A stretch of DNA of 64,000 nucleotides from Gammaproteobacteria bacterium (GTDB lineage Bacteria > Pseudomonadota > Gammaproteobacteria > Magnimaribacterales > AG-339-G14), in contig BPAJ01000003.1 in NCBI GenBank assembly GCA_019652555.1, forward strand, positions 14,611 to 78,610. Reading direction: 5' to 3'. The notes under the pieces were generated by a model, which worked only from the letters and a program-made list of their open reading frames with translations, did not search any database and was not told the DNA's origin. The stretch's first letter is position 1; each line of letters begins with the position of its first letter. Both the position numbers and the translations under genes were made by a program. This document shows, piece by piece, positions 1-20,814 of the stretch.

Positions 1-270
1 AGGACGGAAAAGTCGACTATCTATTTTACTTAACTTCCAACTAGAAAGGGTTTTGTCAAAGGTTTTTAAAATATCTTGAGAGCGCATGTAAACCAAATAA
101 TCTAAAGGGGCATAACAATGAACAGATTTATTTTCTTTGTTCTCTTTTATGGTTAGTCTCTCTTGAGCTGTTTCATAAAATACGCCTCCGCCATCAAAGA
201 ATTCTCCATCTCCATGTTCAAAAAATAAGTCTAAGAGATAGTCACCTCTCTCCCCAATTTTCTTGTTCAT
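1..270 (-). CDS. hypothetical protein, N-terminal 90 codons only (continues past left edge)
   Basis: The reverse complement of 1-270 is open for all 90 codons from the ATG at 270-268: MNKKIGERGDYLLDLFFEHGDGEFFDGGGVFYETAQERLTIKENKENKSVHCYAPLDYLVYMRSQDILKTFDKTLSSWKLSKIDSRLFRP. It is missing from the ORF track only because it has no stop in the window. Its ATG shares one base with the TGA of the upstream ORF (TGATG). No family motif recognised. Confidence 0.55.
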   Translation of the reverse strand, partial: MNKKIGERGDYLLDLFFEHGDGEFFDGGGVFYETAQERLTIKENKENKSVHCYAPLDYLVYMRSQDILKTFDKTLSSWKLSKIDSRLFRP

Positions 271-906
271 CAACATCTAGCTCTGAAAATTTTCTGGGTA
301 AAAAGTGCAGAGGCATAGAACATATCTTTGTCCGTCTGTTTATCGAAATATTTTGTAAGCAGATCTTTAAAATTATCTTTTGTACAAAAAATGGGATTTA
401 TATTTTCTTTTCTAAACTTTTCTTCCAAATCTTTTTTAGACTCATCAACAGCGGCCGTGATGGTGTATTCGGGAAATAACTTGCTTATACCTGCATAACC
501 ACCTACAGATGAAAATGTTTCAGTACTGTAAACATACTTACAGAAATTAAAATATGTATTGCAAGCATCTCTATCAAGTCCAAAGAACACTACGCATTCG
601 GATTGCTCAAAATTTTGAGGTACTGTATTGATATCAAATTTATTATGAGGTTGTTCTCCGTTGTGCAAAACAAATTGAAAGTCATTGTTCGTAATAAATT
701 CATAAATGGTTTGCTTGTTTTCCTGTAATTCAACCTGATCTTGAAGGTGTATAAATATTTTTTATATCCAATACCTCCTTGAGAGTTAATGAGTTTTTCT
801 AAATATTGATAGTAAGCTTGGATGATATGAAAGTGAGAAAAAGTAGATCTACAAAAACACAAAAGTTTAAATTATCTGCTTTCAATTTAAGTTTATTTGT
901 AGACAT
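270..906 (-). pseudogene. hypothetical ~212-aa protein whose reading frame is spread over three frames (true frameshifts or uncorrected homopolymer indels)
   Basis: The ATG at 906 gives MSTNKLKLKADNLNFCVFVDLLF..., which stops after 35 codons. Track ORF 590..862 (STFSHFHIIQAYYQYLEKLINSQGGIGYKK...) and track ORF 270..668 continue it in the next two frames. The switches coincide with T4/T5 runs (838-864 on the + strand) and with the A6 run at 758-763. The 270..668 frame is closed by TAA at 762-764, exactly at that run. No known family motif. Confidence 0.5.
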
Positions 907-957
907 TAGACTTAAAAATGGATTTAATTTAATTTTTAAATTTATATCAACTTTAGT

Positions 958-1119
958 TCACTTCAAGAAATAGAACAAGGCAACAAATAAAACACCAACC
1001 ACTATAAATGCAGGGAACAAGTATTTGAGTGTCCTGATATTCAATTCATCATCGTTTTTAAATAGGTTTATCAATAGCGCGACAACCAAAACGGCTCCCA
1101 CAAAGTAAATTAAAATCAT
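958..1119 (-). CDS. 53-aa two-TM micro-protein (below ORF-track size cutoff)
   Basis: The ATG at 1119-1117 directly abuts the TAG (1122-1120) of the upstream ORF; TGA at 960-958. Product: MILIYFVGAVLVVALLINLFKNDDELNIRTLKYLFPAFIVVGVLFVALFYFLK, two hydrophobic helices joined by a short charged loop. Confidence 0.55.
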   Translation of the reverse strand: MILIYFVGAVLVVALLINLFKNDDELNIRTLKYLFPAFIVVGVLFVALFYFLK

Positions 1120-2551
1120 CTAGCTTGTGGCGCCTGCAGAGTTTAATACAGCTAATCTGTCTGTGATTGCAGATAGCTTTCTTTTTATTTCATTCACTAG
1201 AGTTTCGTCATCACTCACAACTTTCTTATGAGTTTCTAATTCATCTCTGATTTCATCTAATTCTGTCCCAATTTGAGTAGATTCTTTCATGTAATCTACA
1301 AATTTATTTAGATCAAAAGATAAACTGTTCTCTTTGACCTTTTTATTCAGCTTGTCGATACAATCTCTTAAGCTTGCTTCCAAAGATGATGAAAATAACT
1401 TGTGAATCTTATTATCAGGAGATTTTTTTCTTTTTAATACGAGAATTCTAACTATGGCCGGTGTCATAAACATGATGCCAACTCCCACAATGGAATCAAA
1501 GGCCGTTTCGGGCTCAAAGAAAACCAACACGACGGCTAAAATTCCAAAAATAACATTCCACCCGATCCAAAAATCTATTTTTTTTTGAATTTCAGGAGAT
1601 ATGGCTGGCCCTAATGATTCTTCCTTGTGGCAAAATTTTTCAAAGAAAATAAATTTGTCTCGTCATTGAATGACACATCCGCATGTTTTTCATTGTAAAG
1701 ATCAATAATAGATTTTTGTCTTGATATTTTTTTATCAGCCCACCGCTAAATCTCTGTTTAACAGATAAATCATGTGCTTCCTTAGTTACTTTGAGTTTTT
1801 CCTCAGCTGCGCGAAGTTCATCAAGTAATCTTCGCATTTCAGCTTTGTCTTCCCATCTGGTACCTAATTTTTTCTTTCCTTGTCTATTTTCTCAGCAAGT
1901 TCTTCTACCTTTACTTTAAAAGAAAGTTTTTCAGCTTGAGTCATAGTCCCTTTAATATTTTTACTCGTCTTTGTATTGGTATTTAAATAATTTTTATTGA
2001 GCTTATTAAAAGCTTCATTTTTCATTAAATTAGTTGCAAAGTTTTCTGCACTATCTTTTTTGATCAAATCAAATTCATTTCTCATTCCTTGAAAAATATC
2101 TACACCTCCTTCAAGTACTTTTATATATTCAGCTTGTTTTGCATCAAATTTATTTTGCCAATCTTTGACTATTTTTGTTTGATCAGGAAGTTTCGTTGTC
2201 TCAAGGTATTCAAGATCTCTATTAAGTTTTGCTTCTTCATTGAGTAAATCTTTTGCTTCTCTTTCTTGGTTTTCTTTGGCAATAGTTCCTTCAGATTTCT
2301 TACCTGAACAGTCTTCACACATCCAAACTGTTCTATATGTTGTGTGTGTTCTTTTTTTTGACGTTAGTAAGGATCTTTCTAAAGCTTTTTGAGAAGTTTG
2401 AAATCCTAAAATGGCACCTACAACCTCTTTGCCACCAACGGTATTTCGAGAAGTTGCTGTAATTTTTTTTGGGTGTCGTACCATGAAATTTGCCGGTGCT
2501 TGGCTTCCACAAATATTACAAGTCGTTAGTCTGTTTTTTTTTTTTCGCCAT
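1120..2551 (-). pseudogene. hypothetical ~477-aa protein with two CxxC pairs, coiled coil and two TM helices, split into 4-5 frame segments at homopolymer runs
   Basis: Segments: ATG 2551 plus the A12 run; track ORF 1864..2484 (206 aa, K/E-rich, contains CEDC); track ORF 1640..1837; an untracked frame reading RWADKKISRQKSIIDLYNEKHADVSFNDETNLFSLKNFATRKNH; and track ORF 1120..1530, whose frame is open back to 1662. The last segment carries two hydrophobic helices, IDFWIGWNVIFGILAVVLVFF and SIVGVGIMFMTPAIVRILVL. Each neighbouring frame opens only a few codons before an A-run. The net length after correction is divisible by 3 (1434 nt). Confidence 0.5.
2534..2545 (-). repeat. A12 homopolymer (T12 on + strand) starting 6 nt after a candidate start codon
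   Basis: Direct count: t2534-t2545, flanked by ctg and cgccat. On the coding strand this reads ATG GCG A12 CAG. Confidence 0.95.
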
Positions 2552-2610
2552 AGATTAATTATAGTAATTTTTGAAATTTAAAAATATATTCAAGTAAAAT
2601 AATTTGAAAA

Positions 2611-2799
2611 ATGAATGATGACCTTCTAGCTATTCTTATTGCAATCCCTTTGTGTATAGTTGCACTTGCTTGGTACTACAGTACCGATAGAGGAAAAAAG
2701 GACATTAAAGACTTAGAAAAAGCTCAACAAGATTTGAAAGCTGCACTAAAATTTGAGTCAGATTTAGAAAGCAATAAACCAAAAAAGAAAACAAATTAA
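2611..2799 (+). CDS. 62-aa N-terminally anchored small membrane protein, unknown function
   Basis: Track ORF with one hydrophobic helix (LLAILIAIPLCIVALAWYY) followed by a charged helical tail. It is divergent from the 2551 start across a 59-bp, almost pure A/T spacer. Confidence 0.45.
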   Translation: MNDDLLAILIAIPLCIVALAWYYSTDRGKKDIKDLEKAQQDLKAALKFESDLESNKPKKKTN

Positions 2800-2846
2800 T
2801 TTACTTTTTAAGTAATTCATATTTTGTACCAAAAATAACTTTTGTT

Positions 2847-3332
2847 TTAGCCTCTCAAATTTAATTGGCGCAGAGATAAGAGAAATATTCCAGCACAACA
2901 AATCAGTACCCAGCCTGGAATGGATATACCTAAGAGACTCCACATCACTTCAGCACAATTGCCATCTCCAATGAAAAATTGAATCAATGCATCTGAAATG
3001 AAGTTGTTCTCCAAAAGATAATTTAAATCAGGTCCGCAAGAGGGGACTCGATCTGGCGGTAATGATTGCAGATACAAATGCCTCACCGCGGAAGCACCTC
3101 CCACCAGACTAAAAAAGCCCGTTAGCGCTAAGTAAAACTTTCCTAAATTGTTGTGCAGTATGCCAATCAATGCTGCAGCTCCAGCTAGAGCAACAGCTAT
3201 TCTTTGCACGATACACATGGGACAGGGTTCGAGCCCAAGTTGGTATTCCATGTAAAATGCAGTGGCAATTAAACCGATGCAAGCAAGCAAAATTAAAGTT
3301 AAAACAACACGCGTTTCTTGCAGCAAATTCAT
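2847..3332 (-). CDS. dsbB: disulfide bond formation protein B
   Basis: 161 aa with four hydrophobic helices. It has the first-loop CPMC pair and a second Cys pair (SCGPD...GNCAE), as in DsbB. Confidence 0.85.
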   Translation of the reverse strand: MNLLQETRVVLTLILLACIGLIATAFYMEYQLGLEPCPMCIVQRIAVALAGAAALIGILHNNLGKFYLALTGFFSLVGGASAVRHLYLQSLPPDRVPSCGPDLNYLLENNFISDALIQFFIGDGNCAEVMWSLLGISIPGWVLICCAGIFLLSLRQLNLRG

Positions 3333-3367
3333 GGTATAAGTATAACGAAATTTAGGTAAAAAATTTT

Positions 3368-6073
3368 ATGGCAAAACCAGAAAGCGCATCAGATACCGAC
3401 TCCGTCATTCTCATCGATGGGTCATCATATGTATACCGTGCATACCATGCTTTACCGCCCTTAACGACTTCCTCTGGTCAGCCAACTGGTGCGGTAAGAG
3501 GGGTGACCACCATGGTGATGCGTATCTTAGAAGACCATCCAAATTCACCCATTGGGATGATCTTCGATGCCAAAGGCGATACTTTTCGCCACGAAATGTA
3601 TGAAGAATACAAAGCCAATCGACCACCGATGCCAGATGACTTACGTCCGCAAATTCAACCCATTTATGACATTGTTGAAGCCTTGGGTATCAAGATTTTT
3701 GTAGTCGATAACGTTGAGGCCGATGATGTGATTGGCACGCTTGCTAAGCAAGCTGAAGAAAAGGGCATTTCGACTGTGATTTCCACTGGCGATAAAGATT
3801 TGGCACAACTCGTAACTAAAAATATCAAATTGGTGAATACCATGACCAATGAAGTTCTGGATCAAAAAGGGGTGGAGAAAAAGTTTGGCGTAACCCCAGA
3901 ACAAATCATCGATTACTTGGCACTTGTTGGGGACACCTCGGATAACATTCCAGGGGTAAATAAAGTCGGTCCCAAAACTGCCGTTAATTGGTTAAGCAAA
4001 TATGGAACGGTTGAAACCATCATTGAAAAAGCTGAAGAAATTACCGGTAAGGTTGGCGAATACTTACGCGAAGGCATTGAGCAACTCAAACTCTCGCAAC
4101 AATTAACCACCATTAAAAAAGATGTCGCATTGGATTTTGGGATTGAGGATCTGGCAGTAGGAGAAACCGATCAAGCCAAGTTGCACAAGCTATTTACCGA
4201 ACTGGAATTTAAGACTTTATTAAAAAGTGCTGAAACAAAAAAAACTCCAGCAAAAAGCTCCAATGGCTCAGCTTCAAAAGACAATTACCGCGCCATTCTG
4301 AGTAAAAAAGATTTGGATGGTCTCATTAAGGAATTGAAAAAAGCCAAAGTTTTGGCTTTTGACACCGAAACGGATTCCTTGGATTTTACTCAAGCCAACT
4401 TGGTCGGTTTATCAGTTGCAACGGACGAAGACAATGCATACTACATTCCGGTAGGTCACGATTACGAAGGTGCGCCTAAGCAACTCGATCGAGACGAGGT
4501 TTTAAAAAAACTCAAACCAATTATTGAAAAGACTCCTTTGATCGGCCAACACTTAAAATTCGATCGCAATGTTTTAGCAAATTACGACATCCATTTGAAT
4601 GCTATTGAAAACGACACCATGTTGATGTCTTACGTCTATGATCCAACTGCGACCCGTCATAATTTGGATGCCATGGCGAGTCATTATTTAAATGTCAAAA
4701 CCACAACTTTTGAGGATGTTGCTGGTAAGGGCGTCAAACAACTTACTTTCAATCAGATACCTTTGGAAAAAGCGAGTGACTATGCAGCAGAAGATGCAGA
4801 TATCACTTTTCGTTGCTATTCCCATTTAAAACCAGCTTTAGCAAAGACACCTTCTTTGGAAAAAGTTCTGCATGAAATTGAATTACCCTTGGTGCCAGTG
4901 CTCTCCGATATGGAACAAGCAGGAACTTTAGTTAATGAAGAAGCATTAAAAATTCAATCCAATAATTTAGGACAACGTATCAGTGGGCTTGAAGAACAAG
5001 CTTATCGAGAAGCGGGTAAAGAATTCAACTTGGCTTCTACCAAAGATTTAAGAGCAATTTTCTTTGATGAGATGGAACTCCCGGTCGTGAAAAAAACTCC
5101 TGGCGGCCAACCTTCTACCGATGAGTCGGTTTTACAAGAATTAGCCAATCATTATGAATTACCAAAAATTCTCTTGGAACATCGTACTTTGGCAAAATTG
5201 AAAAGTACTTATACCGATAGTCTGCCGCAACAAATATCGAAAAAGACGGGTCGCGTGCATACTTCTTTTCATCAAGCTGTGACTTCAACTGGGAGATTGT
5301 CTTCTGCTGATCCCAATTTACAAAACATCCCAATCAAAACCGATGAGGGTAGGCTTATCAGAACGGCTTTTGTTGCGCCCAAGGGATATCAATTGCTAGC
5401 AGTTGATTATTCGCAAATTGAGTTGCGCATCATGGCGCATCTTTCTGAAGATAAAGGCTTGATTACCGCATTCGAAAATGGCGAAGACATTCATTCTGTT
5501 ACAGCGGCAGAAGTCTTTGCTGAACCCGGTGAAGAGGTCACTGCAGAACAACGTCGTGGCGCTAAGGCGATCAACTTCGGTTTAATTTATGGCATGTCGG
5601 CCTTTGGTCTGAGTAAAGCTTTGAATATTTCTAGACCTTTAGCTGCTGACTATATTGATTCATATTTTCACAAATACCCTGGCGTTAAATTGTATATGGA
5701 ACGCACCAAGGAGCTTGCTAAAGAGAAAGGTTATGTTGAAACCTTTTTTGGTAGAAGACTTTATTTACCTGGAATCCACAGCGGACGCAGTCGCATGGCT
5801 GCAGAAAGAGCAGCAATCAATGCGCCCATGCAAGGAACTGCTGCTGACATCATGAAAATTGCGATGATTGAAATTCATGAGTGGCTAGCCAAAGGCAAAG
5901 TTGATGCTCGGATGATCATGCAAGTTCACGATGAAGTAATTTTAGAGGTCAAAGATCAAGACGCTTCCAAAGTCGAGCAAGAAGTTTCAAAAATCATGCA
6001 AAATGCAGCGAAATTGAAAGTGCCTTTGGAAGTTGAAAGCGGTCTGGCTTCCAATTGGGGCGAAGCCCACTAG
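3368..6073 (+). CDS. polA: DNA polymerase I
   Basis: 901 aa. N-terminal 5'-3' exonuclease region, 3'-5' exo motif FDTETDSL, and polymerase motifs DYSQIELR, RRGAKAINFGLIYG and QVHDE. Confidence 0.98.
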   Translation: MAKPESASDTDSVILIDGSSYVYRAYHALPPLTTSSGQPTGAVRGVTTMVMRILEDHPNSPIGMIFDAKGDTFRHEMYEEYKANRPPMPDDLRPQIQPIYDIVEALGIKIFVVDNVEADDVIGTLAKQAEEKGISTVISTGDKDLAQLVTKNIKLVNTMTNEVLDQKGVEKKFGVTPEQIIDYLALVGDTSDNIPGVNKVGPKTAVNWLSKYGTVETIIEKAEEITGKVGEYLREGIEQLKLSQQLTTIKKDVALDFGIEDLAVGETDQAKLHKLFTELEFKTLLKSAETKKTPAKSSNGSASKDNYRAILSKKDLDGLIKELKKAKVLAFDTETDSLDFTQANLVGLSVATDEDNAYYIPVGHDYEGAPKQLDRDEVLKKLKPIIEKTPLIGQHLKFDRNVLANYDIHLNAIENDTMLMSYVYDPTATRHNLDAMASHYLNVKTTTFEDVAGKGVKQLTFNQIPLEKASDYAAEDADITFRCYSHLKPALAKTPSLEKVLHEIELPLVPVLSDMEQAGTLVNEEALKIQSNNLGQRISGLEEQAYREAGKEFNLASTKDLRAIFFDEMELPVVKKTPGGQPSTDESVLQELANHYELPKILLEHRTLAKLKSTYTDSLPQQISKKTGRVHTSFHQAVTSTGRLSSADPNLQNIPIKTDEGRLIRTAFVAPKGYQLLAVDYSQIELRIMAHLSEDKGLITAFENGEDIHSVTAAEVFAEPGEEVTAEQRRGAKAINFGLIYGMSAFGLSKALNISRPLAADYIDSYFHKYPGVKLYMERTKELAKEKGYVETFFGRRLYLPGIHSGRSRMAAERAAINAPMQGTAADIMKIAMIEIHEWLAKGKVDARMIMQVHDEVILEVKDQDASKVEQEVSKIMQNAAKLKVPLEVESGLASNWGEAH

Positions 6074-6148
6074 TTCAAGAACTTTTTCAAACATCCTCAG
6101 TCTAAAAAACGTTCTCCTAAAAAATAAGGAAATACATAATCCTTGTGG

Positions 6149-6190
6149 CCCGTCAGCATCTCTCTCCCCTGAAAACTGCTGACGGGTTTA
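6149..6190. terminator. hairpin between convergent polA and engB
   Basis: Perfect 10-bp inverted repeat cccgtcagca (6149-6158) / tgctgacggg (6177-6186) with an 18-nt loop, followed by ttt on the + strand. It lies immediately after the engB stop. Confidence 0.5.
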
Positions 6191-6796
6191 AACTTCTAAG
6201 AGCAGTTTAATTTTATTTAACAAAGTTTCCAAACCTATTTTTTTGGTTGCAGAAAATACCAGTGAGTCGACAATAGCTGGGTAATCAGCCATTTTTTCCG
6301 AGACAACTTTAAGAGTATTTTGGGTTTCTTTGCTATTAAGTTTATCGGCTTTGGTCAAAACCAAATGAATGGGTAAATTCAACGAATTGCAAAGACTTAA
6401 AAATTCCAGATCTTTGTTTTGAAAAGGGTGACGCATGTCCATGATCAAAATCAAATCGGTTAGGGCTGCTCTTTTTTCCAAATAACTCAAAATCAGTTTG
6501 GCCCAAGCATTTTGATCTTGCTTACTGGCTTTGGCGTAACCGAAGCCTGGTAAATCGACTATTTTTTTTGCTTCGTCATTTGTTAAATGAAAAAAATTGA
6601 TGGATTGGGTTCTTCCTGGTGTATTGGAGGTTTTGGCTAATTTTTTTTGATTAGCTAAAGCATTGATCAAAGTAGATTTTCCAGAATTTGATCTGCCGCA
6701 AAGAGCAATTTCATTACCCGAGTCAGAAGGGAAAAGTTTGCTTTCGGTTGCAGCACAAGCAAAGGTCAGAGGCAAAGGTTTTGACTTATAACTCAT
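6188..6796 (-). CDS. engB: ribosome biogenesis GTPase EngB/YihA
   Basis: 202 aa. P-loop GRSNSGKST, DLPGFGY and TKADK motifs. The polA-adjacent position matches Pseudomonas-type synteny. Confidence 0.93.
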   Translation of the reverse strand: MSYKSKPLPLTFACAATESKLFPSDSGNEIALCGRSNSGKSTLINALANQKKLAKTSNTPGRTQSINFFHLTNDEAKKIVDLPGFGYAKASKQDQNAWAKLILSYLEKRAALTDLILIMDMRHPFQNKDLEFLSLCNSLNLPIHLVLTKADKLNSKETQNTLKVVSEKMADYPAIVDSLVFSATKKIGLETLLNKIKLLLEV

Positions 6797-6869
6797 TCTT
6801 CTAAAATCAGGAAAAACAATATTCTATAGTATATAATTGCCAACCATTTAGCCCACTAATAAAGAATAA

Positions 6870-7511
6870 ATGATAAAAAAATTATTACTTCTATCGTTTT
6901 TGGTAAGTTCCTTTAGCGTTTTTGCAGCTGCTGCTGGAGAAATGTCTGAAGCCAAACCAATGAAAAGAGGGGATGCTGAAAAAGGTTCTAAACTTGTTGG
7001 AACTTGCGTTGCTTGTCATGGCGTTGATGGAAATAGTGTTGTGGGCCAGTGGCCAACTTTAGCTGGCCAAAGAGAAAGCTATCTTTTTGAGCAACTTGAG
7101 CACATCAGAGATGAAGAGCGAGTTATCGCGGTTATGAAAGGCCTTTTGAATAATTATTCCGACGATGATTTAAGAGACATGGCAGCTTTTTACGCAAGCC
7201 AAAAAACCAAAGTCGGCCAAGCTGATGAGACAAATTTAGAATTAGGCCAACAGATTTATCGAGCTGGAAACTTGGCTTCGGGCGTTCCGGCTTGCACCGG
7301 TTGTCATGGACCTGCGGGTAAAGGTTTAGAGTCAGCGCAATATCCAATGCTTGGTGGTCAAAAGGCAGAGTACGTAGTCACGAGTTTGATTGCTTATCAA
7401 ACTGGAGAGAGAGCTATCGACGAACATGGCAAAATCATGCAAGGAATAGCTTCAAGACTTACCATCGAAGAGATTAGGGCGGTCGCCAATTATGTTTCAG
7501 GCCTTTACTAA
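6870..7511 (+). CDS. dihaem cytochrome c4
   Basis: 213 aa with a signal peptide and two CxxCH haem motifs (CVACH, CTGCH), one in each half. Confidence 0.9.
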   Translation: MIKKLLLLSFLVSSFSVFAAAAGEMSEAKPMKRGDAEKGSKLVGTCVACHGVDGNSVVGQWPTLAGQRESYLFEQLEHIRDEERVIAVMKGLLNNYSDDDLRDMAAFYASQKTKVGQADETNLELGQQIYRAGNLASGVPACTGCHGPAGKGLESAQYPMLGGQKAEYVVTSLIAYQTGERAIDEHGKIMQGIASRLTIEEIRAVANYVSGLY

Positions 7512-8115
7512 AAAACTTTTACTAGTTTTCATTTTCTCAGTCAGTTCACTATTGATTGCCGAAGATTATCAGCCAGGCAAACACTACCAGATTTTATCTG
7601 AACCCATCGCTACCAGAGATTCAAAAAAAATCGAAGTCATCGAGTTCTTCTGGTTTGGGTGTGGACATTGTTACAGCTTAGAAAATCAACTCAATAGCTG
7701 GGAGAAGAAACTTCCTGCAGATATAGATTTTTGGCGCTCACCAATCACTTGGAATGAAATGGCTAAAACGCATGCCAAATTATTTTATGCTGCAGAATTT
7801 TTCAAAAAGCCGGATATCATTGCAAGTACTTTTGTTTCCATTCATGCCAACCAGCGTATGATGACTTCCGATCGAGAGTTACAACCTTTTTTTGCAAGCT
7901 TTGGGATTGCCGAAGATCAGTACCAATCTTTGTTTAATTCTTTTGCTATGCAAAACAAAATCCGTAGAGCTGATACTTTTGGACTCAAATATGAAATCCG
8001 AGGAGTACCTGCTTTTATCGTCAATGGAAAATACAAAGTATCAGCCTCACGACAAGTTGGGACTTCCGAACTTTTGGATGTGGTCGATTACCTCATTAAC
8101 TTAGAAAGGAAATAA
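7492..8115 (+). CDS. dsbA: thiol:disulfide interchange protein DsbA
   Basis: 207 aa with a signal peptide and the active site FGCGHC. It follows cytochrome c4, as in pseudomonads, with a 20-nt overlap. Confidence 0.92.
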   Translation: MFQAFTKKLLLVFIFSVSSLLIAEDYQPGKHYQILSEPIATRDSKKIEVIEFFWFGCGHCYSLENQLNSWEKKLPADIDFWRSPITWNEMAKTHAKLFYAAEFFKKPDIIASTFVSIHANQRMMTSDRELQPFFASFGIAEDQYQSLFNSFAMQNKIRRADTFGLKYEIRGVPAFIVNGKYKVSASRQVGTSELLDVVDYLINLERK

Positions 8116-8116
8116 C

Positions 8117-8944
8117 ATGAGATACAAATCAAACCTGTTCATTCCAGGTCACACGCTCGATCGTTTGGATCGAGGTCTCAATAGCAATGCCAGTGCTCTC
8201 ATCATCGACCTTGAAGATGGTTGCCCAGAAGATAAAAAAATCGATGCACGCGAAGAATTGATTGGTCTTTTAAAAAAAGGGAACGTATTTACCAAACCTT
8301 TATTTGTAAGAGTCAACGATGCCATGAATGAAAACGGCAGACAGGATATTGATGCTTTATCGGATTTTGAAGATCAAATCGAGGCTATCATTCTTCCCAA
8401 AACACAAAGTTTTGATTTCTTAGCAACGCTTGCACCAATGATTGCATTCGAAAACAAATTAGTTCCTTTGATTGAGACGCCTAGAGCAGTCGATACCGTT
8501 ACACAAATAGCAGCATTTAAAGGAGTCATCGGTTTGTTCTTTGGAGCTGCTGATTTTTCTGCAGGTATGGGTTCTAAATTAGCATGGGAACCGCTTTTGT
8601 ATGCTCGGCATAAAGTAGCTTTGGCTGCAGCTATGTACAACCTCTTTACCATCGATGCGCCATTTTTCTATATCGATAATGAAGAAGGTCTTATAGAAGA
8701 GGCTGAAAAAGTGAAGAACCTTGGTTTTACAGGAAAAGCCGCGATTCATCCTTCGCAAATCGATTTTATCAATGATGCGTTTGAACCTACTAAAGAAGAA
8801 AAAGAGGAAGCCAAAAAAGTCCTTGAGGAATACCAAAAGATGGATGGCGGAGCTGTTAAAATTGATGGCAAAATGGTTGACGAGCCGATTGCAGAAGCGA
8901 TGCGTTTAAAATTATCTTTAGGAGATAAAGAACAGGAGGACTAG
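8117..8944 (+). CDS. CitE/HpcH-family acyl-CoA lyase (citramalyl-/malyl-CoA lyase-like)
   Basis: 275 aa with LFIPG...IIDLEDG...IETPRAV...GAADFSAGMG, typical of citrate lyase beta-like / CLYBL / Rv2498c-type lyases. Confidence 0.8.
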   Translation: MRYKSNLFIPGHTLDRLDRGLNSNASALIIDLEDGCPEDKKIDAREELIGLLKKGNVFTKPLFVRVNDAMNENGRQDIDALSDFEDQIEAIILPKTQSFDFLATLAPMIAFENKLVPLIETPRAVDTVTQIAAFKGVIGLFFGAADFSAGMGSKLAWEPLLYARHKVALAAAMYNLFTIDAPFFYIDNEEGLIEEAEKVKNLGFTGKAAIHPSQIDFINDAFEPTKEEKEEAKKVLEEYQKMDGGAVKIDGKMVDEPIAEAMRLKLSLGDKEQED

Positions 8945-8945
8945 C

Positions 8946-9464
8946 ATGTCAAAGTCCAGCAAAGATTTAGGTAACAATAGATTTAGAGAATCCTTCGGTC
9001 GTTACTTTGAAGAATTTGAAGTAGGCCACATATACGAACACCGTCCTGGTAGAACCATTACCGAGTCGGACAACACCTGGTTTACGCTTTTAACCATGAA
9101 TACTCATCCGCTTCATTTTGATAAGGAGTATGGCAAGGCAACAGAATTCGGGAAAAATTTAGTAAACAGTACTTTCACCGTATCTGTGATGGTTGGTATG
9201 AGCGTGAGTGATATCAGTCAAAAAGCCATAGCCAATCTTGGTTGGACCGACATTGTGCTTCCACATCCATTATTTGTCGGTGACACTCTATATGCAGAGT
9301 CGGAAGTTTTAGAAACGCGTCTTTCCGAATCCAGGAAAAATGCTGGCATCGTTACTGTAAAAACAATTGGTAAGAATCAAAATGGGGATGTTGTAGCTTC
9401 CTTCAAACGCTCAGCTTTAGTTCCGACCAAAGGTAATGCGGTAGACGATAAGATCGATTATTAA
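8946..9464 (+). CDS. MaoC-like (R)-specific enoyl-CoA hydratase, single hot-dog
   Basis: 172 aa with FEVGHIYEHRPGRTITESDNTWFTLLTMNTHPLHFD, the hallmark MaoC dehydratase segment. There is a 1-nt gap to the upstream lyase gene. Confidence 0.8.
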   Translation: MSKSSKDLGNNRFRESFGRYFEEFEVGHIYEHRPGRTITESDNTWFTLLTMNTHPLHFDKEYGKATEFGKNLVNSTFTVSVMVGMSVSDISQKAIANLGWTDIVLPHPLFVGDTLYAESEVLETRLSESRKNAGIVTVKTIGKNQNGDVVASFKRSALVPTKGNAVDDKIDY

Positions 9465-9465
9465 G

Positions 9466-10629
9466 TTGAAGCAATCTTTAAAAGGCATAAAAGTTCTTGA
9501 TTTAACCCACATGTTGGCAGGTCCTTACACGACTATGATTCTGGCTGATTTGGGTGCCGAAGTTGTAAAAATCGAGCAACCAAAAACAGGCGACATTACC
9601 AGAAATCTGCTGAAAGACGATCCAAAGTATTCTTTGGATGGGATCGGTGCATATCATCTAACTTTAGGTAGAAACAAAAAAAGCGTTGAATTGGATCTCA
9701 AATCTGAAGAAGGCCTAAAACTTTTCAAAGAGTTGGTCTCAGTTGCAGATGTTGTTGTAGATAATTTCAGTCAAGGCGTAACGCAGCGTTTGGGCATTGA
9801 TCATCAAAGCTTAAAAAAAGTTAATCCAAAAATCATTACCTGTTCAATCAGTGGCTTTGGCGATACTGAATTAAATCGACCTGCCTATGACAATCTCATT
9901 CAAGGTTACGCTGGAGCAATGTCCATCACAGGAACAGACAAAGAAAATCCTGTTAAATCCGGCATCCCTATAGCTGACTTAGGAGCTGGACTTTATGCGG
10001 TGATCGGTATTTTAAGCGCTATACAGTCTCGAGAAAAAAATGACTCCGGCGAACATGTGGATATTTCCATGCTGGATACTCAGGTGAGTTTATTAACTTA
10101 CATGGCTACCATGCATTTTCTCTCAGGCGAAAATCCTGAGCCGATTGGAAATCAACACATGAATCATGTGCCGTTCAATTCTTATAGAACTTCGGATGGT
10201 TTTATTCAAATAGGAGTGGTTGCTGAAGATTTTTGGCCCAGCCTCATTGAAGCGCTTGATCTAAGACAATTGGATACTGAAGAAAATAAAGTAAGAATCG
10301 GTAGACTAAAAAACAGAGAAAATATTGATGAGGCTTTGCAAGAAGTTTTTATTACCAACACCACAGAACATTGGTTGAAAATTTTACAAGAACACCGTGT
10401 TCCTTGTGGACCAATTAATACTCTTTCTGAAACTTTTGAAGACGCTGACCTATTAAAAAGAAATATGATCGTCGAGGTTCTTCAAGATAGTGGAACGTCT
10501 GTAAAAATGCCTGGTAACCCAGTGAAAATTTCTAATCACGATGAAGAATTTAGACGCTCACCAAAACTTGGTGAACATACTGCTGAAATTTTCAAAAATT
10601 GGTTAAATAAAGACATTTCAGTTGACTAA
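9466..10629 (+). CDS. family III (CaiB/BaiF) CoA-transferase
   Basis: 387 aa with a TTG start 1 nt after the MaoC stop. N-terminal signature GIKVLDLTHMLAGPYTTMILADLGAEVVKIE. Confidence 0.88.
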   Translation: MKQSLKGIKVLDLTHMLAGPYTTMILADLGAEVVKIEQPKTGDITRNLLKDDPKYSLDGIGAYHLTLGRNKKSVELDLKSEEGLKLFKELVSVADVVVDNFSQGVTQRLGIDHQSLKKVNPKIITCSISGFGDTELNRPAYDNLIQGYAGAMSITGTDKENPVKSGIPIADLGAGLYAVIGILSAIQSREKNDSGEHVDISMLDTQVSLLTYMATMHFLSGENPEPIGNQHMNHVPFNSYRTSDGFIQIGVVAEDFWPSLIEALDLRQLDTEENKVRIGRLKNRENIDEALQEVFITNTTEHWLKILQEHRVPCGPINTLSETFEDADLLKRNMIVEVLQDSGTSVKMPGNPVKISNHDEEFRRSPKLGEHTAEIFKNWLNKDISVD

Positions 10630-10703
10630 GATTAAGACTGCCTACTCTTTTCAGGAACAATTTAGAGGATTAAACTAAATTTAATCATTAAGGAGAGAAA
10701 AAC

Positions 10704-11756
10704 ATGGATGCGGAAAAACTCAGTCAATTAACTCAAAAAGTCATTGGTGACGCAGCAGGAGCAGTGGGGTTGCTACTTGCTTACATTGGCGACCAATCAA
10801 AAGTCTATACAACAATGGACGAACTAGGCCCTTCTTCTGTAAAAGAAATTGCAGATAAAGCAGGTCTCGATGAACGTTACTTAAGAGAATTTCTCTCGTC
10901 TAATGCTGCCAATGGCTATGTAACTTACGAACCCGCGGAGGACAAATTTTCCCTTTCGCCAGAGCAAGCAGCTGTCTTTGCGAAAGATGGTGAGCCTACC
11001 TGTTTGCAGGGGTACTTCCAGGCAATTGTTGGACAATATGCAGAACATGAAAAAGCCGTAGAAACTTTTCAATCAGGAAAAGGCAGACCATGGGGAGAAC
11101 ATCATCTGTGTTGTTTTTGTGGCACCGATAGATTTTTTAGGCCTGGGTATGTTGGGAATTTAGTTAGCAATTGGATTCCATCTTTATCTGGAGTTGAAGA
11201 TCAACTTAAAGCTGGCGCTAAAGTTGCCGACATTGGTTGTGGATTAGGTTCAACGACAATTATCATGGCTCAGACTTATCCGAATTCAACAATTCATGGA
11301 TATGATTTTCATGGCCCATCTATTGAAGAGGCTAGCGCTAGAGCAAAGGAACTGGGATTAACTAATATTGAGTTTCATGTATCAGATGCTAGAGATATTC
11401 CAGATAATGGTTATGACTTTGCTTGTATCTTTGATGCTCTGCATGACATGGGCGATCCAGTAGGCGTTGCCAATCATATTAAAAATGTACTTTCCGATGA
11501 AGGAACCTTTATGTTGGTTGAACCTGCTGCAGCAGATAATTTAGAAGATAACCTCAATACTTTTGGCGGACTGGCCTATGGATTTTCAACAATAGTTTGT
11601 GTTCCTACTTCCAGAGCCCAAGACGTAGGTCTATGTTTAGGGGCTCAAGCTGGACCAAAAAGATTAACAGAGGTCTTAAATTCTGCTGGTTTTAATCATG
11701 TTAGAGAATCAGCAAGAACTGGAACGAATATGGTTTTTGAGGTCAAACAAGCTTAA
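10704..11756 (+). CDS. class I SAM-dependent methyltransferase with N-terminal winged-helix-like domain
   Basis: 350 aa. SAM motif I VADIGCGLGS and an acidic post-I residue (HGYDF). SD aaggag lies 8 nt upstream. Substrate unknown. Confidence 0.75.
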   Translation: MDAEKLSQLTQKVIGDAAGAVGLLLAYIGDQSKVYTTMDELGPSSVKEIADKAGLDERYLREFLSSNAANGYVTYEPAEDKFSLSPEQAAVFAKDGEPTCLQGYFQAIVGQYAEHEKAVETFQSGKGRPWGEHHLCCFCGTDRFFRPGYVGNLVSNWIPSLSGVEDQLKAGAKVADIGCGLGSTTIIMAQTYPNSTIHGYDFHGPSIEEASARAKELGLTNIEFHVSDARDIPDNGYDFACIFDALHDMGDPVGVANHIKNVLSDEGTFMLVEPAAADNLEDNLNTFGGLAYGFSTIVCVPTSRAQDVGLCLGAQAGPKRLTEVLNSAGFNHVRESARTGTNMVFEVKQA

Positions 11757-13078
11757 TGCCCAAGGAAAATACTTTTCTTGAAAAAGCTTTATTGGTTCAA
11801 GTTGAGACCACGAAGGTTAGGCGGATCTTAAATTTTGAAAATTCTTTTGAAGAGTTTAGAGACCTTGCCAGATCGGCTGGAGCCAATATTTTAGAAGAAA
11901 TTAAAGGCAAGCAGGAACTCGCATCGCCTAGATATTTTATTCAAAAAGGTAAGCTGGAAGAGATAAAGCAAGCCGTTCATAAAAATAAAATAGGTTTGGT
12001 GATATTCAACCACGCACTTTCTCCATCGCAGGAGAGAAATATCGAACGCTATTTAAAGGCCAGAGTATTAGATAGAACTGGTTTGATTTTAGATATTTTT
12101 GCAAGACGCGCTTTTAGTCACATTGGAAAACTTCAAGTTGAACTCGCCCAATTGTCACATCTGTCTACTAGATTAGTTAGAGGCTGGAGCCATTTGGAAA
12201 GACAAAAAGGAGGAATTGGTCTTAGAGGTCCTGGGGAAACTCAACTTGAAACAGATCGAAGATTGATTGGTAATAGAATCAAGGCACTCAAAAAGAAACT
12301 GACTAAAAGTCATAACCAAAAATCCTTAAATCGTTACGCCAGAAAAAAAGGAAAAAATAAAATAGTCGCTTTGGTCGGTTATACCAATGCAGGTAAAACA
12401 ACATTATTTAATGCTTTAACCGGTGGAGACGAATATCAAGCGGATCAGTTGTTTGCAACTTTAGATTCGGTTACCAGAAAGAATTTAAGTCCTGGAAGCA
12501 GGGCAATTTTATTTACTGACACTGTAGGTTTTATTTCTGAAATTCCAACGGAGTTGATTGAATCATTCAAAACCACTTTAGATGATCTTAGATCGGCAGA
12601 TTTATTAATCCATTTGGTAGACATCAATGATCCAGAAAAAGATTTGAAACAAAAAGAAGTTTCAAGAATTTTGAAAGATCTGAATGTTGATAACATTCCA
12701 CAACTTTTAGTGAATAATAAAATTGATTATCTTTCTGAAAAAAAGCAACAAGAGTTGGAATTTCAAAATCCTGAAGAACTTTTTATTTCCGCAGAAAAGA
12801 ATATCGGTATTGAGCCTTTAAAGGAAAAAATAATAGAGAGAATCAGTAATGGGCTCTTTAAAGGTTGGGTATCGATTTCCCATCAAGCGTCAGCTGCCAG
12901 AGCTAGGCTTTATGAAGAAGGATGTGTTCGCGATGAGGTTATAAAGGATAACGAGTGGCATCTGAAATTAAATATCGGAAATGATTTACTCACCGATTAC
13001 CTAAATTCATCGCAATTGAAAATTTTGCATGATGAGAATCAACAATCGTTAGAAGTTGGTGAGCCAGGCAGGACTTGA
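11756..13078 (+). CDS. hflX: GTPase HflX
   Basis: 440 aa with the HflX N-domain, G1 motif GYTNAGKTTLFNAL, and DTVGF and NKID motifs. Its ATG shares one base with the TAA of the methyltransferase (TAATG). Confidence 0.93.
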   Translation: MPKENTFLEKALLVQVETTKVRRILNFENSFEEFRDLARSAGANILEEIKGKQELASPRYFIQKGKLEEIKQAVHKNKIGLVIFNHALSPSQERNIERYLKARVLDRTGLILDIFARRAFSHIGKLQVELAQLSHLSTRLVRGWSHLERQKGGIGLRGPGETQLETDRRLIGNRIKALKKKLTKSHNQKSLNRYARKKGKNKIVALVGYTNAGKTTLFNALTGGDEYQADQLFATLDSVTRKNLSPGSRAILFTDTVGFISEIPTELIESFKTTLDDLRSADLLIHLVDINDPEKDLKQKEVSRILKDLNVDNIPQLLVNNKIDYLSEKKQQELEFQNPEELFISAEKNIGIEPLKEKIIERISNGLFKGWVSISHQASAARARLYEEGCVRDEVIKDNEWHLKLNIGNDLLTDYLNSSQLKILHDENQQSLEVGEPGRT

Positions 13079-13133
13079 ACCTGCGACCTTTTGCTCCGGA
13101 AACAAACGTTCTAATCCACTGAACTACTGGCTC
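13057..13133 (-). tRNA. tRNA-Arg (anticodon CCG)
   Basis: 77-nt cloverleaf read by hand. Acceptor GAGCCAG/CTGGCTC, D stem GTTC/GAAC, anticodon stem TTTGT/GCAAA, loop TTCCGGA (anticodon CCG), T stem GCAGG/CCTGC with loop TTCAAGT, discriminator A, and an encoded CCA. Confidence 0.9.
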
Positions 13134-13205
13134 AATACTTAAAATATTTTTAAATAAGCTTAAACTTTTCTCCGTACCAGAGATAGATTTAATTCTTTAG
13201 AGGTC

Positions 13206-13211
13206 TATAAT
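13206..13211 (+). promoter_or_regulatory. candidate -10 box (TATAAT) 6 nt upstream of the cytochrome c5 ATG
   Basis: A perfect TATAAT at 13206-13211 is followed by cgcgac and then ATG at 13218. No SD lies at a usable distance: the nearest GAGG is 14 nt upstream. Confidence 0.25.
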
Positions 13212-13217
13212 CGCGAC

Positions 13218-13661
13218 ATGAAAAAAATCTTCTTAATTGCTGTTGTATCCACAATGACTTTTCTCTTCGCTGCAGACATGCGTGAAGATGCAATTTTAAA
13301 AAGAATTCAACACCTTGGTTCCGTCTGCACTTCTGCAGACTGCGGTTTGAAGACTTCTGGTCCAGGTTGGAAAGTTTCTACCTCGATGTTTGCTGCTCCA
13401 GTGCAAGTTACTGATGCCAGCGGTCGAGATGGAAAAACAGTTTATGAAGCTGCTTGCACAACTTGTCATGCTGCTGGAATGGCTGGCGCACCAAAATTTG
13501 CTGATGCATCGAGTTGGGGAGATCGACCTAATAAAGGCCTGGCAACTCTAACCATGAACGTTAAAAATGGTTTAAATGCTATGCCTGCAATGGGTCTGTG
13601 TATGGATTGTACTGACGCTGAATTGGAAGCTTCTGTGCAGTATATGTTAGACGCTCTCTAA
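13218..13661 (+). CDS. monohaem cytochrome c5
   Basis: 147 aa with a signal peptide, CTTCH haem motif, GAPKF, NAMPAMG, and the C-terminal Cys pair CMDC typical of c5. Confidence 0.85.
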   Translation: MKKIFLIAVVSTMTFLFAADMREDAILKRIQHLGSVCTSADCGLKTSGPGWKVSTSMFAAPVQVTDASGRDGKTVYEAACTTCHAAGMAGAPKFADASSWGDRPNKGLATLTMNVKNGLNAMPAMGLCMDCTDAELEASVQYMLDAL

Positions 13662-15917: not shown

Positions 15918-15918
15918 T

Positions 15919-17966: not shown

Positions 17967-18054
17967 CTTCAGGCAGATATAAAGGACCTTTTATGCCACA
18001 CGAGCTTAGAAAGCCGAAACTGATTAGACATAACCCAAGTAAAAAAATTTTCAT
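17935..18054 (-). CDS. lptM: small lipoprotein LptM/YifL (LppL)
   Basis: 39-aa ORF not in the track: [39 protein letters not shown]. It has the lipobox LSSC followed by the conserved GxKGPLYLP motif. Its ATG overlaps the argH stop (ATGA), and its 3' end overlaps the lysA start. Confidence 0.8.
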   Translation of the reverse strand: MKIFLLGLCLISFGFLSSCGIKGPLYLPEDEEINELKTF

Positions 18055-20812: not shown

Positions 20813-20814
20813 AA

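What the first reader, a model, noticed from the sequence alone, without database searches (positions are those of the whole stretch)
1636..1873. Three further frame switches inside the coiled-coil gene, each exactly at an A-run and each fixed by adding one A
Seen, site 1 (A6, + strand T-run 1868-1873): the 206-aa ORF ends ...EELAEKIDKERKN*. The next frame opens about 6 codons before the run and reads ...KKLGTRWEDKAEMRRLLDELRAAEEKLKV, so one extra A gives ...KIDKERKKLGTRWEDKAEM..., continuing the same coiled-coil character. Seen, site 2 (A7, 1727-1733): the tracked frame degenerates into ...YQDKNLLLIFTMKNMRMCHSMTRQIYFL*. The adjacent frame opens 4 codons before the run and reads RWADKKISRQKSIIDLYNEKHADVSFNDETNLFSLKNFATRKNH*. 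Seen, site 3 (A5, 1636-1640): that frame joins ...NLFSLKK to FCHKEESLGPAISPEIQKKIDFWIGWNV..., the frame of ORF 1120..1530, which is open back to 1662. By contrast, roughly 60 housekeeping genes in the remaining 61 kb are all single intact ORFs, although they contain A8/T8 runs (for example in engB at about 6561-6568 and 6644-6651). Inference: this is either genuine decay or contingency behaviour confined to the accessory block, or it is an artefact. The artefact case would be systematic one-base under-calling of homopolymers that was repaired only where database homologues exist (homology-guided polishing). That would itself mean these genes have no close homologues.
Basis: partly seen in the sequence, partly recalled or inferred. 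Interest (0 to 1): 0.6.

Follow-up and report, generated by a model that had tools for sequence, protein, structure and literature searches.

The report
Assembly errors break one intact gene
The three "frame switches" are real in this sequence, but they are almost certainly uncorrected long-read sequencing errors in a strain-variable island of a SAR86 metagenome-assembled genome. The gene is a single intact 477-codon gene in more than 100 other assemblies, so the finding is an artefact, not biology.

Summary
The minus-strand gene 2551..1120 changes frame three times between 1873 and 1629, and once more at the A12 tract after its start codon. Only site 1 (A6, 1873-1868) is placed correctly. The true lesion 2 is the next run (A5 at 1717-1713; orthologues have A6). 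Lesion 3 is a lost T between 1629 and 1628, not in a run.

The stitched protein has over 100 full-length intact homologues of 474-478 aa. After orthologue-guided repair it is identical to an intact ORF in an independent Illumina assembly.

The window is contig DNA of MAG CM1_5m.P123 (Hiraoka et al. 2022). That study assembled ONT and PacBio reads with wtdbg2 and polished ONT contigs with reads, using HyPo.

The accessory block (1-2883) carries 14 one- or two-base indels, 13 of them deletions, in coding and intergenic DNA alike. Against its nearest relative it has only 6 substitutions in 1.9 kb. The adjoining 18.9 kb of core DNA has 1 indel per about 557 substitutions (Fisher p = 2e-14).

Verdict: a polishing artefact confined to a low-coverage flexible island. 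It is not decay, contingency or recoding. Homology-guided repair is not needed to explain it, and the gene does have close homologues.

The parts
1120..2551 (-). One gene of the 477-aa zinc-ribbon / coiled-coil / 2-TM family. In this record it is broken into four annotated fragments (CM15mP123_13200, _13210, _13220 and an unannotated start).
   Evidence: The stitched product is 477 aa. More than 100 intact homologues of 474-478 aa cover 100% of it. Alignment A1 reads through all junctions, with invariant GTRWE directly after site 1.
1868..1873 (-).
   Evidence: L001, L002 and L089 all have one more A.
1713..1717 (-). True lesion 2: A5 where orthologues have A6.
1727..1733 (-). It is not the lesion; orthologues also have A7.
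   Evidence: no gap at this run; the orthologue-guided repair gives ...KKYQDKKSII..., as in all homologues.
1628..1629 (-). True lesion 3: one T missing between these bases (GCC[T]ACAAGG). It is not in a homopolymer.
1636..1640 (-). It is not the lesion; orthologues have the same length.
2534..2545 (-). A12 tract right after the ATG at 2551. Orthologues have A9-T-A, so the window differs by a T>A change plus one extra base. This separates MAKKK from the zinc-ribbon frame.
   Evidence: All close homologues start MAKKKYRLTTCNICG.
2352..2359 (-). A8 run created by a window-only G>A at 2357. It changes family-invariant Arg65 to Lys.
958..1119 (-). Intact 53-aa two-TM small ORF. Its ATG follows directly on the stop codon of the 477-aa gene (TAGATG).
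   Evidence: It is conserved in the same position in L001, L002, L089 and L088.
1..906 (-). 5' part of the next gene (696-699 aa in relatives; it runs off the window). It is broken by six more lesions: a missing C at 848, A6/A7 at 763-758, T5/T6 at 304-300, T4/T5 at 289-286, a (GA)n 2-nt loss at about 253-246, and CC/CCC at 7-6.
   Evidence: Intact 696-aa and 699-aa versions are in L001 and L089.
914..937 (.). Two intergenic runs shorter than in L002: A5/A6 at 914-918 and T5/T6 at 933-937.
   Evidence: Only L002 covers these cleanly, so they are less certain.
2607..2611 (.). Intergenic lesion: A5 against A6.
   Evidence: L002 and L089.
2831..2835 (.). Intergenic lesion: A5 against A6. This is the last lesion before the core.
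   Evidence: L089.
2611..2799 (+). Intact 62-aa ORF (CM15mP123_13230). The exact protein is seen on 19 contigs elsewhere.
2847..3332 (-). dsbB. Homology to the core of related genomes starts at 2883, inside its 3' end, which marks the island/core boundary.
   Evidence: Pfam DsbB, 8.9e-39. HSPs with L091, L094, L095 and L092 all begin at 2883.

Best explanation
The frame switches are consensus errors of the assembly, not features of the organism's DNA.

**Provenance**
- The window belongs to MAG CM1_5m.P123, a SAR86-clade gammaproteobacterium from Pacific surface water.
- In that study PacBio CCS and Nanopore reads were each assembled with wtdbg2. The Nanopore contigs were then polished with HiFi and MiSeq reads using HyPo.

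**Proposed mechanism**
- Read-based polishing can only correct where accurate reads map.
- The first 2.9 kb of the window is a flexible, strain-variable defence-type island next to dsbB, carried by only part of the population.
- The draft's typical long-read errors survived there: one-base deletions, mostly in A/T runs, plus non-run bases inside A-tracts 'smoothed' to A.
- Four of these errors fall in one real 477-codon gene and cut it into pieces. Six more cut the next gene, and four lie in intergenic DNA.

**Shown**
- The lesions, their spectrum and their confinement to the island.
- The intact identical allele in another assembly.
- The sequencing and polishing history.

**Inferred**
- That this contig came from the Nanopore assembly rather than the HiFi one.
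- That accurate-read depth drops over the island.
For: 1. **The gene is single and intact elsewhere.** There are 135 homologues. The 54 closest (81-96% identity to the stitched query) are all full length at 474-478 aa. Alignment A1 runs through all junctions.
2. **An identical intact allele exists.** The orthologue-guided repair, with Y6 and R65, equals P0350 exactly. P0350 is an intact ORF on an 18x SPAdes contig.
3. **Differences from that allele look like errors.** Window 1045-2954 against that contig (L089) has 6 substitutions and 6 one-base indels. Four of the 6 substitutions convert an interrupting base inside an A/T tract into the run base, leaving only 2 ordinary transitions.
4. **Spectrum.** There are 14 window-specific indels in 2.85 kb, and 13 of them are deletions. 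Nine are in A/T runs of 4 or more, four are intergenic, and about 6 of 14 true A/T runs of 6-7 nt are shortened.
5. **Same contig, core part.** Positions 2883-21756 against two Illumina MEGAHIT contigs show 555-559 mismatches and a single 1-bp non-coding indel. Against L095 there are 278 mismatches and 0 gaps. Fisher's test of island (13:37) against core (1:559) gives p = 2e-14. At island density, 287 indels would be expected in the core coding DNA, and no frameshift is seen.
6. **No sign of relaxed selection.** The repaired protein has only 2 residues not seen in 54 relatives, and both arise inside A-tracts.
7. **Provenance.** Exact protein matches to GIS23417-GIS23464, locus tags CM15mP123_*. 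The same tag style (CM15mP111_3240) and the methods appear in PMC8919816. Those methods are ONT for CM1_5m only (67 Gb against 3.2-4.8 Gb HiFi), wtdbg2 assembly and HyPo polishing.
8. **The region is hypervariable.** The DNA beyond dsbB differs among relatives L001, L083, L084, L087 and L091.
9. **Other assemblies show the same problem.** Long-read plus Pilon assemblies of the same population have split genes. Examples are L088 (A11 for A10 at the same 5' tract, RmuC in two pieces), L092 (polA as 310 + 586 aa), L093 and L097.
10. **Literature.** Residual homopolymer-length errors are the commonest error of long-read assemblies and need short-read polishing (PMC8812927 and PMC9262707, abstracts).
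Against: - No reads could be examined, so the true run lengths in the sampled cells are not directly known.
- Two of the 14 indels are not in repeats: the missing T at 1629/1628 and the missing C at 848.
- It cannot be told from the sequence whether the contig is ONT- or HiFi-derived.
- The drop in accurate-read depth over the island is inferred, not measured.
- A few other database copies of the gene are also broken (P0273, P0110, P0103-P0109). Some are on short contigs whose sequencing technology is unknown.
Confidence: 0.93

Rival explanations
1. Genuine recent decay. In this strain the island is dead DNA that has accumulated real one-base deletions, giving a pseudogene.
For: - The ORF is disrupted relative to intact orthologues.
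- The lesions are confined to accessory DNA, where selection could be relaxed.
- Homopolymer slippage is a real mutational route in AT-rich genomes (established knowledge).
Against: - At least 10 slippage-type differences stand against 2 ordinary substitutions relative to a 99.9%-identical intact allele.
- The island's indel-to-substitution ratio is about 200-fold that of the same contig's core, non-coding DNA included.
- There are no excess unique amino-acid changes.
- No larger deletions are seen.
- The small neighbouring ORFs (53 aa and 62 aa) are intact.
- No other record shares the stops.
- The assembly is of an error-prone kind.
Confidence: 0.04
2. Contingency or phase variation. The A-tracts are hypermutable switches that turn a defence-island gene off and on.
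For: - An A9-A10 tract sits directly after the start codon in all orthologues.
- Its length differs in the window (A12) and in L088 (A11).
- Several database copies start at the downstream Met (P0103-P0109).
Against: - Four separate lesions are present, and a switch needs only one.
- One lesion is not in a repeat.
- The runs at lesions 1 and 2 are short (6-7 nt) and are in frame in all 54 close homologues.
- Intergenic runs are hit equally.
- The two records examined that have an altered 5' tract are both from long-read-based projects.
Confidence: 0.02
3. Artefact repaired elsewhere by homology-guided (protein-guided) frameshift correction.
For: The core genes are all intact while the island is not.
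Against: - The published methods list only read-based polishing with HyPo.
- The core's intergenic DNA is also free of indels, and protein-guided repair would not fix that: 1 indel in 18.9 kb, with 525 non-coding bases.
- Close homologues of the broken gene exist in public data, including NCBI records (P0002, P0043).
Confidence: 0.01
4. Programmed -1 ribosomal frameshifting or transcriptional slippage, or alternatively several genuine small genes.
For: - All three changes are -1.
- Site 1 reads A AAA AAT in the incoming frame, which has the form of a slippery heptamer.
Against: - Orthologues encode the protein in one frame with no shift, so nothing is conserved to be recoded.
- Lesion 3 has no slippery sequence.
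- Three serial shifts would give negligible product.
- The short ORFs are not conserved as separate genes anywhere.
Confidence: 0.003

Closest known systems
Residual homopolymer-length indel errors in long-read (Nanopore R9-era or low-pass PacBio) assemblies that fragment ORFs, and their incomplete removal by read-based polishing (PMC8812927 Polypolish; PMC9262707 Sereika et al. 2022; PMC12007338 Kastor)
   Same: - One-base indels, mostly deletions in A/T runs, split a gene that is intact in accurate assemblies.
- Errors persist where accurate reads cannot be placed.
   Different: - Here the unpolished stretch coincides with a strain-variable genomic island of a metagenome population rather than with a repeat.
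- The cause is probably low accurate-read depth (inferred), not ambiguous mapping.
Poly(A)-tract frameshifts in AT-rich endosymbiont genes, partly rescued by transcriptional slippage (Buchnera and Blochmannia; own knowledge, Tamas et al. 2008 PNAS)
   Same: Apparent one-base frameshifts occur at A-runs in an AT-rich gene.
   Different: - Those tracts are long (about 9 or more), are conserved as frameshifted in sequenced isolates, and were verified by accurate sequencing.
- Here the runs are 5-7 nt, one lesion is outside any run, and an identical intact allele exists.
Phase-variable contingency loci with homopolymer tracts (own knowledge; Haemophilus, Neisseria, Campylobacter, Helicobacter)
   Same: There is a homopolymer tract immediately after the start codon of an accessory, possibly defence-related gene.
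   Different: - There are multiple simultaneous lesions, and intergenic runs are hit too.
- No tract-length polymorphism is seen in the two short-read-style contigs read at the DNA level (L002, L089) or in L001, and all 54 close homologues are in frame.

Membership tests
Long-read assembly / polishing artefact | The sequence derives from an error-prone long-read draft with coverage-dependent polishing. | tested here: met
   Exact protein matches give locus tags CM15mP123_* and a 112,495-bp contig. PMC8919816 describes wtdbg2 assemblies of ONT and CCS reads, with ONT contigs polished by HyPo using HiFi and MiSeq reads. Which of the two assemblies this contig came from is not known.
Long-read assembly / polishing artefact | Indels are concentrated in homopolymers, biased towards deletion, and blind to coding status. 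| tested here: met
   13 of 14 indels are deletions, 9 are in A/T runs of 4 or more, and 4 are intergenic.
Long-read assembly / polishing artefact | The same allele is intact in independent accurate assemblies. | tested here: met
   The repaired protein equals P0350 exactly. DNA of L089 differs by only 2 ordinary substitutions in 1.9 kb.
Long-read assembly / polishing artefact | Raw accurate reads contradict the consensus at the lesions. | not testable with these tools
Genuine pseudogene | Signs of relaxed selection accompany the disruptions: unique non-synonymous changes and larger deletions. | tested here: not met
   There are 2 unique residues, against a median of 0 and a mean of 1.5 in 54 relatives, and both lie in A-tracts. 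No indel is longer than 2 bp.
Genuine pseudogene | The indel-to-substitution ratio is compatible with neutral evolution in this lineage. | tested here: not met
   Island 13:37 (against L002) and 6:6 (against L089), compared with core 1:559. p = 2e-14 and 1e-10.
Phase-variable contingency locus | Tract length is polymorphic among accurate sequences of the population, toggling the frame. | tested here: not met
   All 54 close homologues are in frame through lesions 1-3. At the 5' tract, the only altered lengths examined are in the window and in L088, a Pilon-polished contig. The short contigs carrying P0103-P0108 were not examined.
Programmed -1 frameshift / transcriptional slippage | The shift site is conserved in orthologues, with a slippery sequence at each site. 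| tested here: not met
   Orthologues are in one frame. Lesion 3 lies in GCC[T]AC, which is not slippery. Stimulatory RNA structures were not tested.

The most novel reading that the evidence does not exclude
The lesions might be real in a rare SAR86 subpopulation. Its dsbB-adjacent defence island would then be undergoing slippage-driven inactivation, or switching at A/T tracts, fast enough to outrun point substitution by about 100-fold. That would be a free-living, streamlined marine bacterium showing endosymbiont-style homopolymer erosion or contingency behaviour in a defence module.
Probability: 0.04. Interest if true: 0.4.

Novelty: not a real feature. Interest (0 to 1): 0.08.

Why it matters
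The frame switches have little biological significance. There are three practical points.

- Four fragments of one or two real genes are deposited as separate 'hypothetical proteins' (GIS23417-GIS23420) and now seed spurious clusters in protein databases.
- In hybrid or long-read metagenome assemblies the residual error is not uniform. It concentrates in flexible genomic islands, which are the regions mined for new defence systems, so frameshifted 'novel small genes' there need checking against short-read assemblies.
- The underlying intact gene family is itself uncharacterised: a zinc ribbon with an almost invariant 90-residue N-terminus, coiled coils and two TM helices, followed by a 53-aa TM peptide and often a 696-699-aa membrane protein. 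It may be worth study, but that is separate from this finding.

Tried and rejected
- **Exact look-up of the window's DsbB:** not on record. Provenance was obtained later from other proteins.
- **GTDB genome scan with PolA:** this only placed the window in SAR86 at 76% identity and gave no close genome.
- **First set of core relatives (L083-L087):** these were too divergent (86-91% nt) to judge homopolymers. Their many gaps were compensated alignment noise. They were replaced by L091, L094 and L095 at 97-99%.
- **Function of the 477-aa protein:** no significant match in Pfam, NCBIfam, PADLOC, PDB sequence search, or an AlphaFold2 model (pLDDT 75) searched with Foldseek against PDB. Only generic coiled-coil hits appeared, best E = 4.7e-3.
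- **Function of the 696-aa neighbour:** no hit in Pfam, PADLOC, NCBIfam or PDB. My impression of a Cys-loop-like 'YPFDxQ' motif stays an untested lead.
- **Supplementary files of PMC8919816:** not held, so the MAG table for P123 could not be read.
- **Rfam and tRNA scans of the window:** nothing relevant to the block.
- **Coding-potential scan across the junctions:** considered and dropped. Orthologue alignments resolve the junctions to the base.

Full report
**Observation**

On the minus strand a gene starts at the ATG at 2551 and ends at 1120. The three-frame translation shows the frame changing from the 206-aa ORF (2484..1864) to a second frame, then to a third, then to the frame of ORF 1530..1120. 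The runs A6 (1873-1868), A7 (1733-1727) and A5 (1640-1636) are present.

All three changes are -1, so one added base repairs each.

The rest of the window is tightly packed with uninterrupted genes. There are 56 ORFs of at least 120 aa covering 59,062 of 61,154 bases. The only apparent gap holds tatA, tatB and hisE-size genes. These genes remain intact among 32 A/T runs of 8 or more outside the block. The block 1-2850 has 30-33% G+C, against about 40% beyond it.

**Is it one gene?**

Yes. The stitched protein finds 135 homologues. The 54 closest (81-96% identity to the stitched query) are all 474-478 aa and cover 100% of it. Further groups at about 55% and about 40% identity are also full length.

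A 17-sequence alignment runs without disturbance through all junctions. The invariant GTRWE motif lies directly after site 1, 'KY.DKKSII' spans site 2, and 'LKNF.YKEESL' spans site 3. That condition is not met.

**Where exactly are the lesions?**

I aligned DNA of three intact orthologous loci: L002 (NCBI GCA_035092705.1, 98.1% nt), L001 (ENA, 95%) and L089 (ENA, SPAdes, 18x).

- Site 2 is not the A7 run, which is A7 in all orthologues. It is the next run, 1717-1713 (A5 against A6).
- Site 3 is not the A5 run. A single T is missing between 1629 and 1628 (GCC[T]AC), outside any homopolymer.
- The A12 tract corresponds to A9-T-A in the orthologues, so the window differs by a T>A change plus one extra base.

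Given 21 A-runs of 5 or more in 1432 nt, and permissive two-frame zones of 28, 106 and 52 nt, finding an A-run in each zone is near chance expectation.

**The lesions are not confined to this gene**

Across 1-2850 the window carries 14 indels relative to the relatives, and 13 of them are deletions.

- Six break the next gene (906..1, a 696-699-aa protein in relatives).
- Four are intergenic (914-918, 933-937, 2607-2611, 2831-2835).
- Nine lie in A/T runs of 4 or more. One is a (GA)n unit, one is CCC>CC, one is the +1 insertion in the A12 tract, and two are outside repeats.
- About 6 of the 14 true A/T runs of 6-7 nt in the block are shortened.

**Artefact or biology? Four independent lines**

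*Identical intact allele.* I repaired the window gene as the orthologues dictate and set its two unique residues to the family consensus. Those residues are N6, produced by the A12 tract, and K65, produced by a G>A that creates an A8 run and hits an invariant Arg. The result is exactly equal to P0350, an intact ORF in an independent assembly.

*DNA differences from that allele.* Window 1045-2954 differs from that contig by 6 substitutions and 6 one-base indels. Four of the substitutions turn an interrupting base within an A/T tract into the run base. Only two ordinary transitions remain in 1.9 kb. Real decay would need roughly ten slippage-type events in the time of two point changes.

*Contrast within the same contig.* From 2883 onward the window aligns to two Illumina MEGAHIT contigs over 18,874 bp, with 555-559 mismatches and one 1-bp non-coding indel. 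It aligns to L095 over 16.9 kb with 278 mismatches and no gap. The island-to-core contrast in indel-to-substitution ratio is about 200-fold (Fisher p = 2e-14). At island density, 287 indels would be expected in the core coding DNA. The last island lesion is at 2831, and homology to core relatives starts at 2883, so the error-rich stretch is the island.

*Provenance.* Exact look-ups identify the window's proteins as GIS23417-GIS23464, locus tags CM15mP123_*, on a 112,495-bp contig. The same tag style (CM15mP111_3240) appears in Hiraoka et al. 2022 (PMC8919816). Sample CM1_5m was the only one with Nanopore data (67 Gb, against 3.2-4.8 Gb of CCS reads). CCS and ONT reads were each assembled with wtdbg2, and ONT contigs were polished with HiFi and MiSeq reads using HyPo. 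No protein-guided correction is described.

**Why only the island?**

The DNA beyond dsbB is hypervariable in related SAR86 genomes.

- L001 has a KAP NTPase, the 477-aa gene, the 696-aa gene, WYL, RmuC, DUF4007 and BrxC/PglY.
- L083 and L084 carry different helicase and nuclease sets.
- L087, L091 and L094 have RmuC followed by esterase and nuclease genes.

A variant carried by a minority of cells would have enough depth in 67 Gb of ONT reads to be assembled. It would have little depth in the roughly 15-fold smaller accurate-read sets, so polishing would leave the draft untouched. This step is inferred.

The general phenomenon is documented. Homopolymer-length errors are the commonest residual errors of long-read assemblies and need short reads to fix (PMC8812927 and PMC9262707). 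It is also visible in other long-read plus Pilon assemblies of this same population:

- L088 has A11 for A10 at the same 5' tract and a split RmuC.
- L092 has polA split into 310 + 586 aa.
- L093 and L097 have several split core genes.

**Rivals**

- *Genuine decay* is contradicted by the indel-to-substitution ratios, the absence of unique amino-acid changes, the intergenic hits and the intact neighbouring small ORFs.
- *Contingency* is contradicted by four simultaneous lesions, one of them outside a repeat, and by in-frame tracts in all 54 close homologues. The 5' A9-A10 tract is the only place where it remains conceivable.
- *Programmed frameshifting or slippage* is excluded as a conserved mechanism, because orthologues use one frame.
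It does not explain the indel-free core intergenic DNA, and its corollary (no close homologues) is false.

**What the gene is**

The protein is an uncharacterised family, largely from marine metagenomes. Its parts are:

- an N-terminal CxxC...CxxC zinc ribbon with a conserved insert. Residues 1-90 are almost invariant even between homologues only 40% identical overall, and the DNA shows many synonymous differences;
- long coiled-coil hairpins;
- two TM helices (about 320-375);
- a C-terminal helical hairpin (AlphaFold2 pLDDT 75).

It has no match in Pfam, NCBIfam, PADLOC or PDB. A conserved 53-aa TM ORF follows it with stop-start adjacency. In four of five loci a 696-699-aa membrane protein comes next. 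Function is unknown. A defence-island context is the only clue.

**Verdict**

The frame switches are real in the record, one of the three lesions is correctly placed, and two of the three lie in A-runs. This is not a real biological feature. Interest is low.

Noticed in passing
window 1120-2551 (-); alignment A1: The intact 477-aa family has an almost invariant N-terminal 90 residues: a CNIC...CEDC zinc ribbon with the insert TATSRNTVGGKEV..SLLTSRKRTHT. This holds even between members only 40% identical overall, and the DNA carries many synonymous differences. The rest is coiled coil, GTRWED and NEKHADV motifs, and 2 TM helices. No known family or fold match was found.
   Followed up: partly
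window 958-1119 (-); L001, L002, L089, L088: A 52-53-aa two-TM ORF whose ATG follows directly on the stop of the 477-aa gene (TAGATG). It is conserved in all four relatives examined but was not called as a gene in any of them.
   Followed up: partly
window 1-906 (-); L001:4125-6215, L089:2464-4563: The next gene encodes a 696-699-aa protein with a very conserved C-terminal half. That half contains 'NYPFDxQLVFISY' and several TM helices, which reminded me of the Cys-loop of pentameric ligand-gated channels. Pfam, NCBIfam, PADLOC and PDB sequence searches gave nothing, so this is only a lead.
   Followed up: partly
window 1-2883; L001, L083, L084, L087, L091: The DNA beyond the 3' end of dsbB is a hypervariable island in SAR86 relatives. 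It holds changing sets of defence-type genes: KAP NTPase (PifA/QatA-like), WYL, RmuC, SNF2 and AAA_12 helicases, DUF4007, BrxC/PglY. The DsbB C-terminus itself differs (161 against 204-205 aa).
   Followed up: partly
window 2883-3268 vs L089: L089 carries an island allele 99.9% identical to the window (1045-2954), but its dsbB is only about 85% identical from 2955 on. The window's core is 97-99% identical to other contigs that lack this island. Either the island moves between SAR86 lineages by recombination in the dsbB 3' end, or one of the contigs is chimeric.
   Followed up: no
L088, L092, L093, L097 (ENA ERZ285480xx '*_pilon' contigs): Other long-read plus Pilon assemblies of the same population show split core genes: polA as 310 + 586 aa, and split DapF, XerC, DUF484 and citrate-lyase beta. 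L088 has RmuC in two pieces and A11 for A10 in the 5' tract of the 477-family gene.
   Followed up: partly
window 270-668, 1120-1530, 1640-1837, 1864-2484: The fragments are deposited as separate hypothetical proteins GIS23417-GIS23420 (CM15mP123_13190 to _13220). They act as representatives of their own 90% clusters in the protein collection.
   Followed up: yes
window 848 and 1628/1629: Two deletions are not in homopolymers. One is GA[G]TC>GATC on the + strand, which is a GANTC site. The other is CTTGT[A]GGC. A methylated-motif basecalling error is conceivable for the first but was not tested.
   Followed up: no
window 13057-13133 (-) and 11756-13078 (+); L090, L092, L095: tRNA-Arg(CCG) overlaps the last ~20 nt of the hflX ORF. 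Directly after hflX, some relatives carry an extra cobW plus DUF1826 pair (L090, L092, L095) or other small genes (L083, L084). This looks like a second variable spot.
   Followed up: no
L090:1-2544: In contig lagoon_1__contig_16587_pilon a partial second copy of the CoA-transferase, methyltransferase and hflX-N-terminus segment sits directly upstream of polA in place of dsbB (window 9574-12075 matches L090 1-2504). This could be a rearrangement or a misassembly.
   Followed up: no
P0273, P0110, P0102, P0103-P0109: A few other database copies of the 477-aa family start in a wrong frame or at the downstream Met. Some are on long contigs (28-298 kb) and some on 1-3 kb contigs. Whether any of these reflects real variation at the 5' A-tract was not resolved.
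   Followed up: partly
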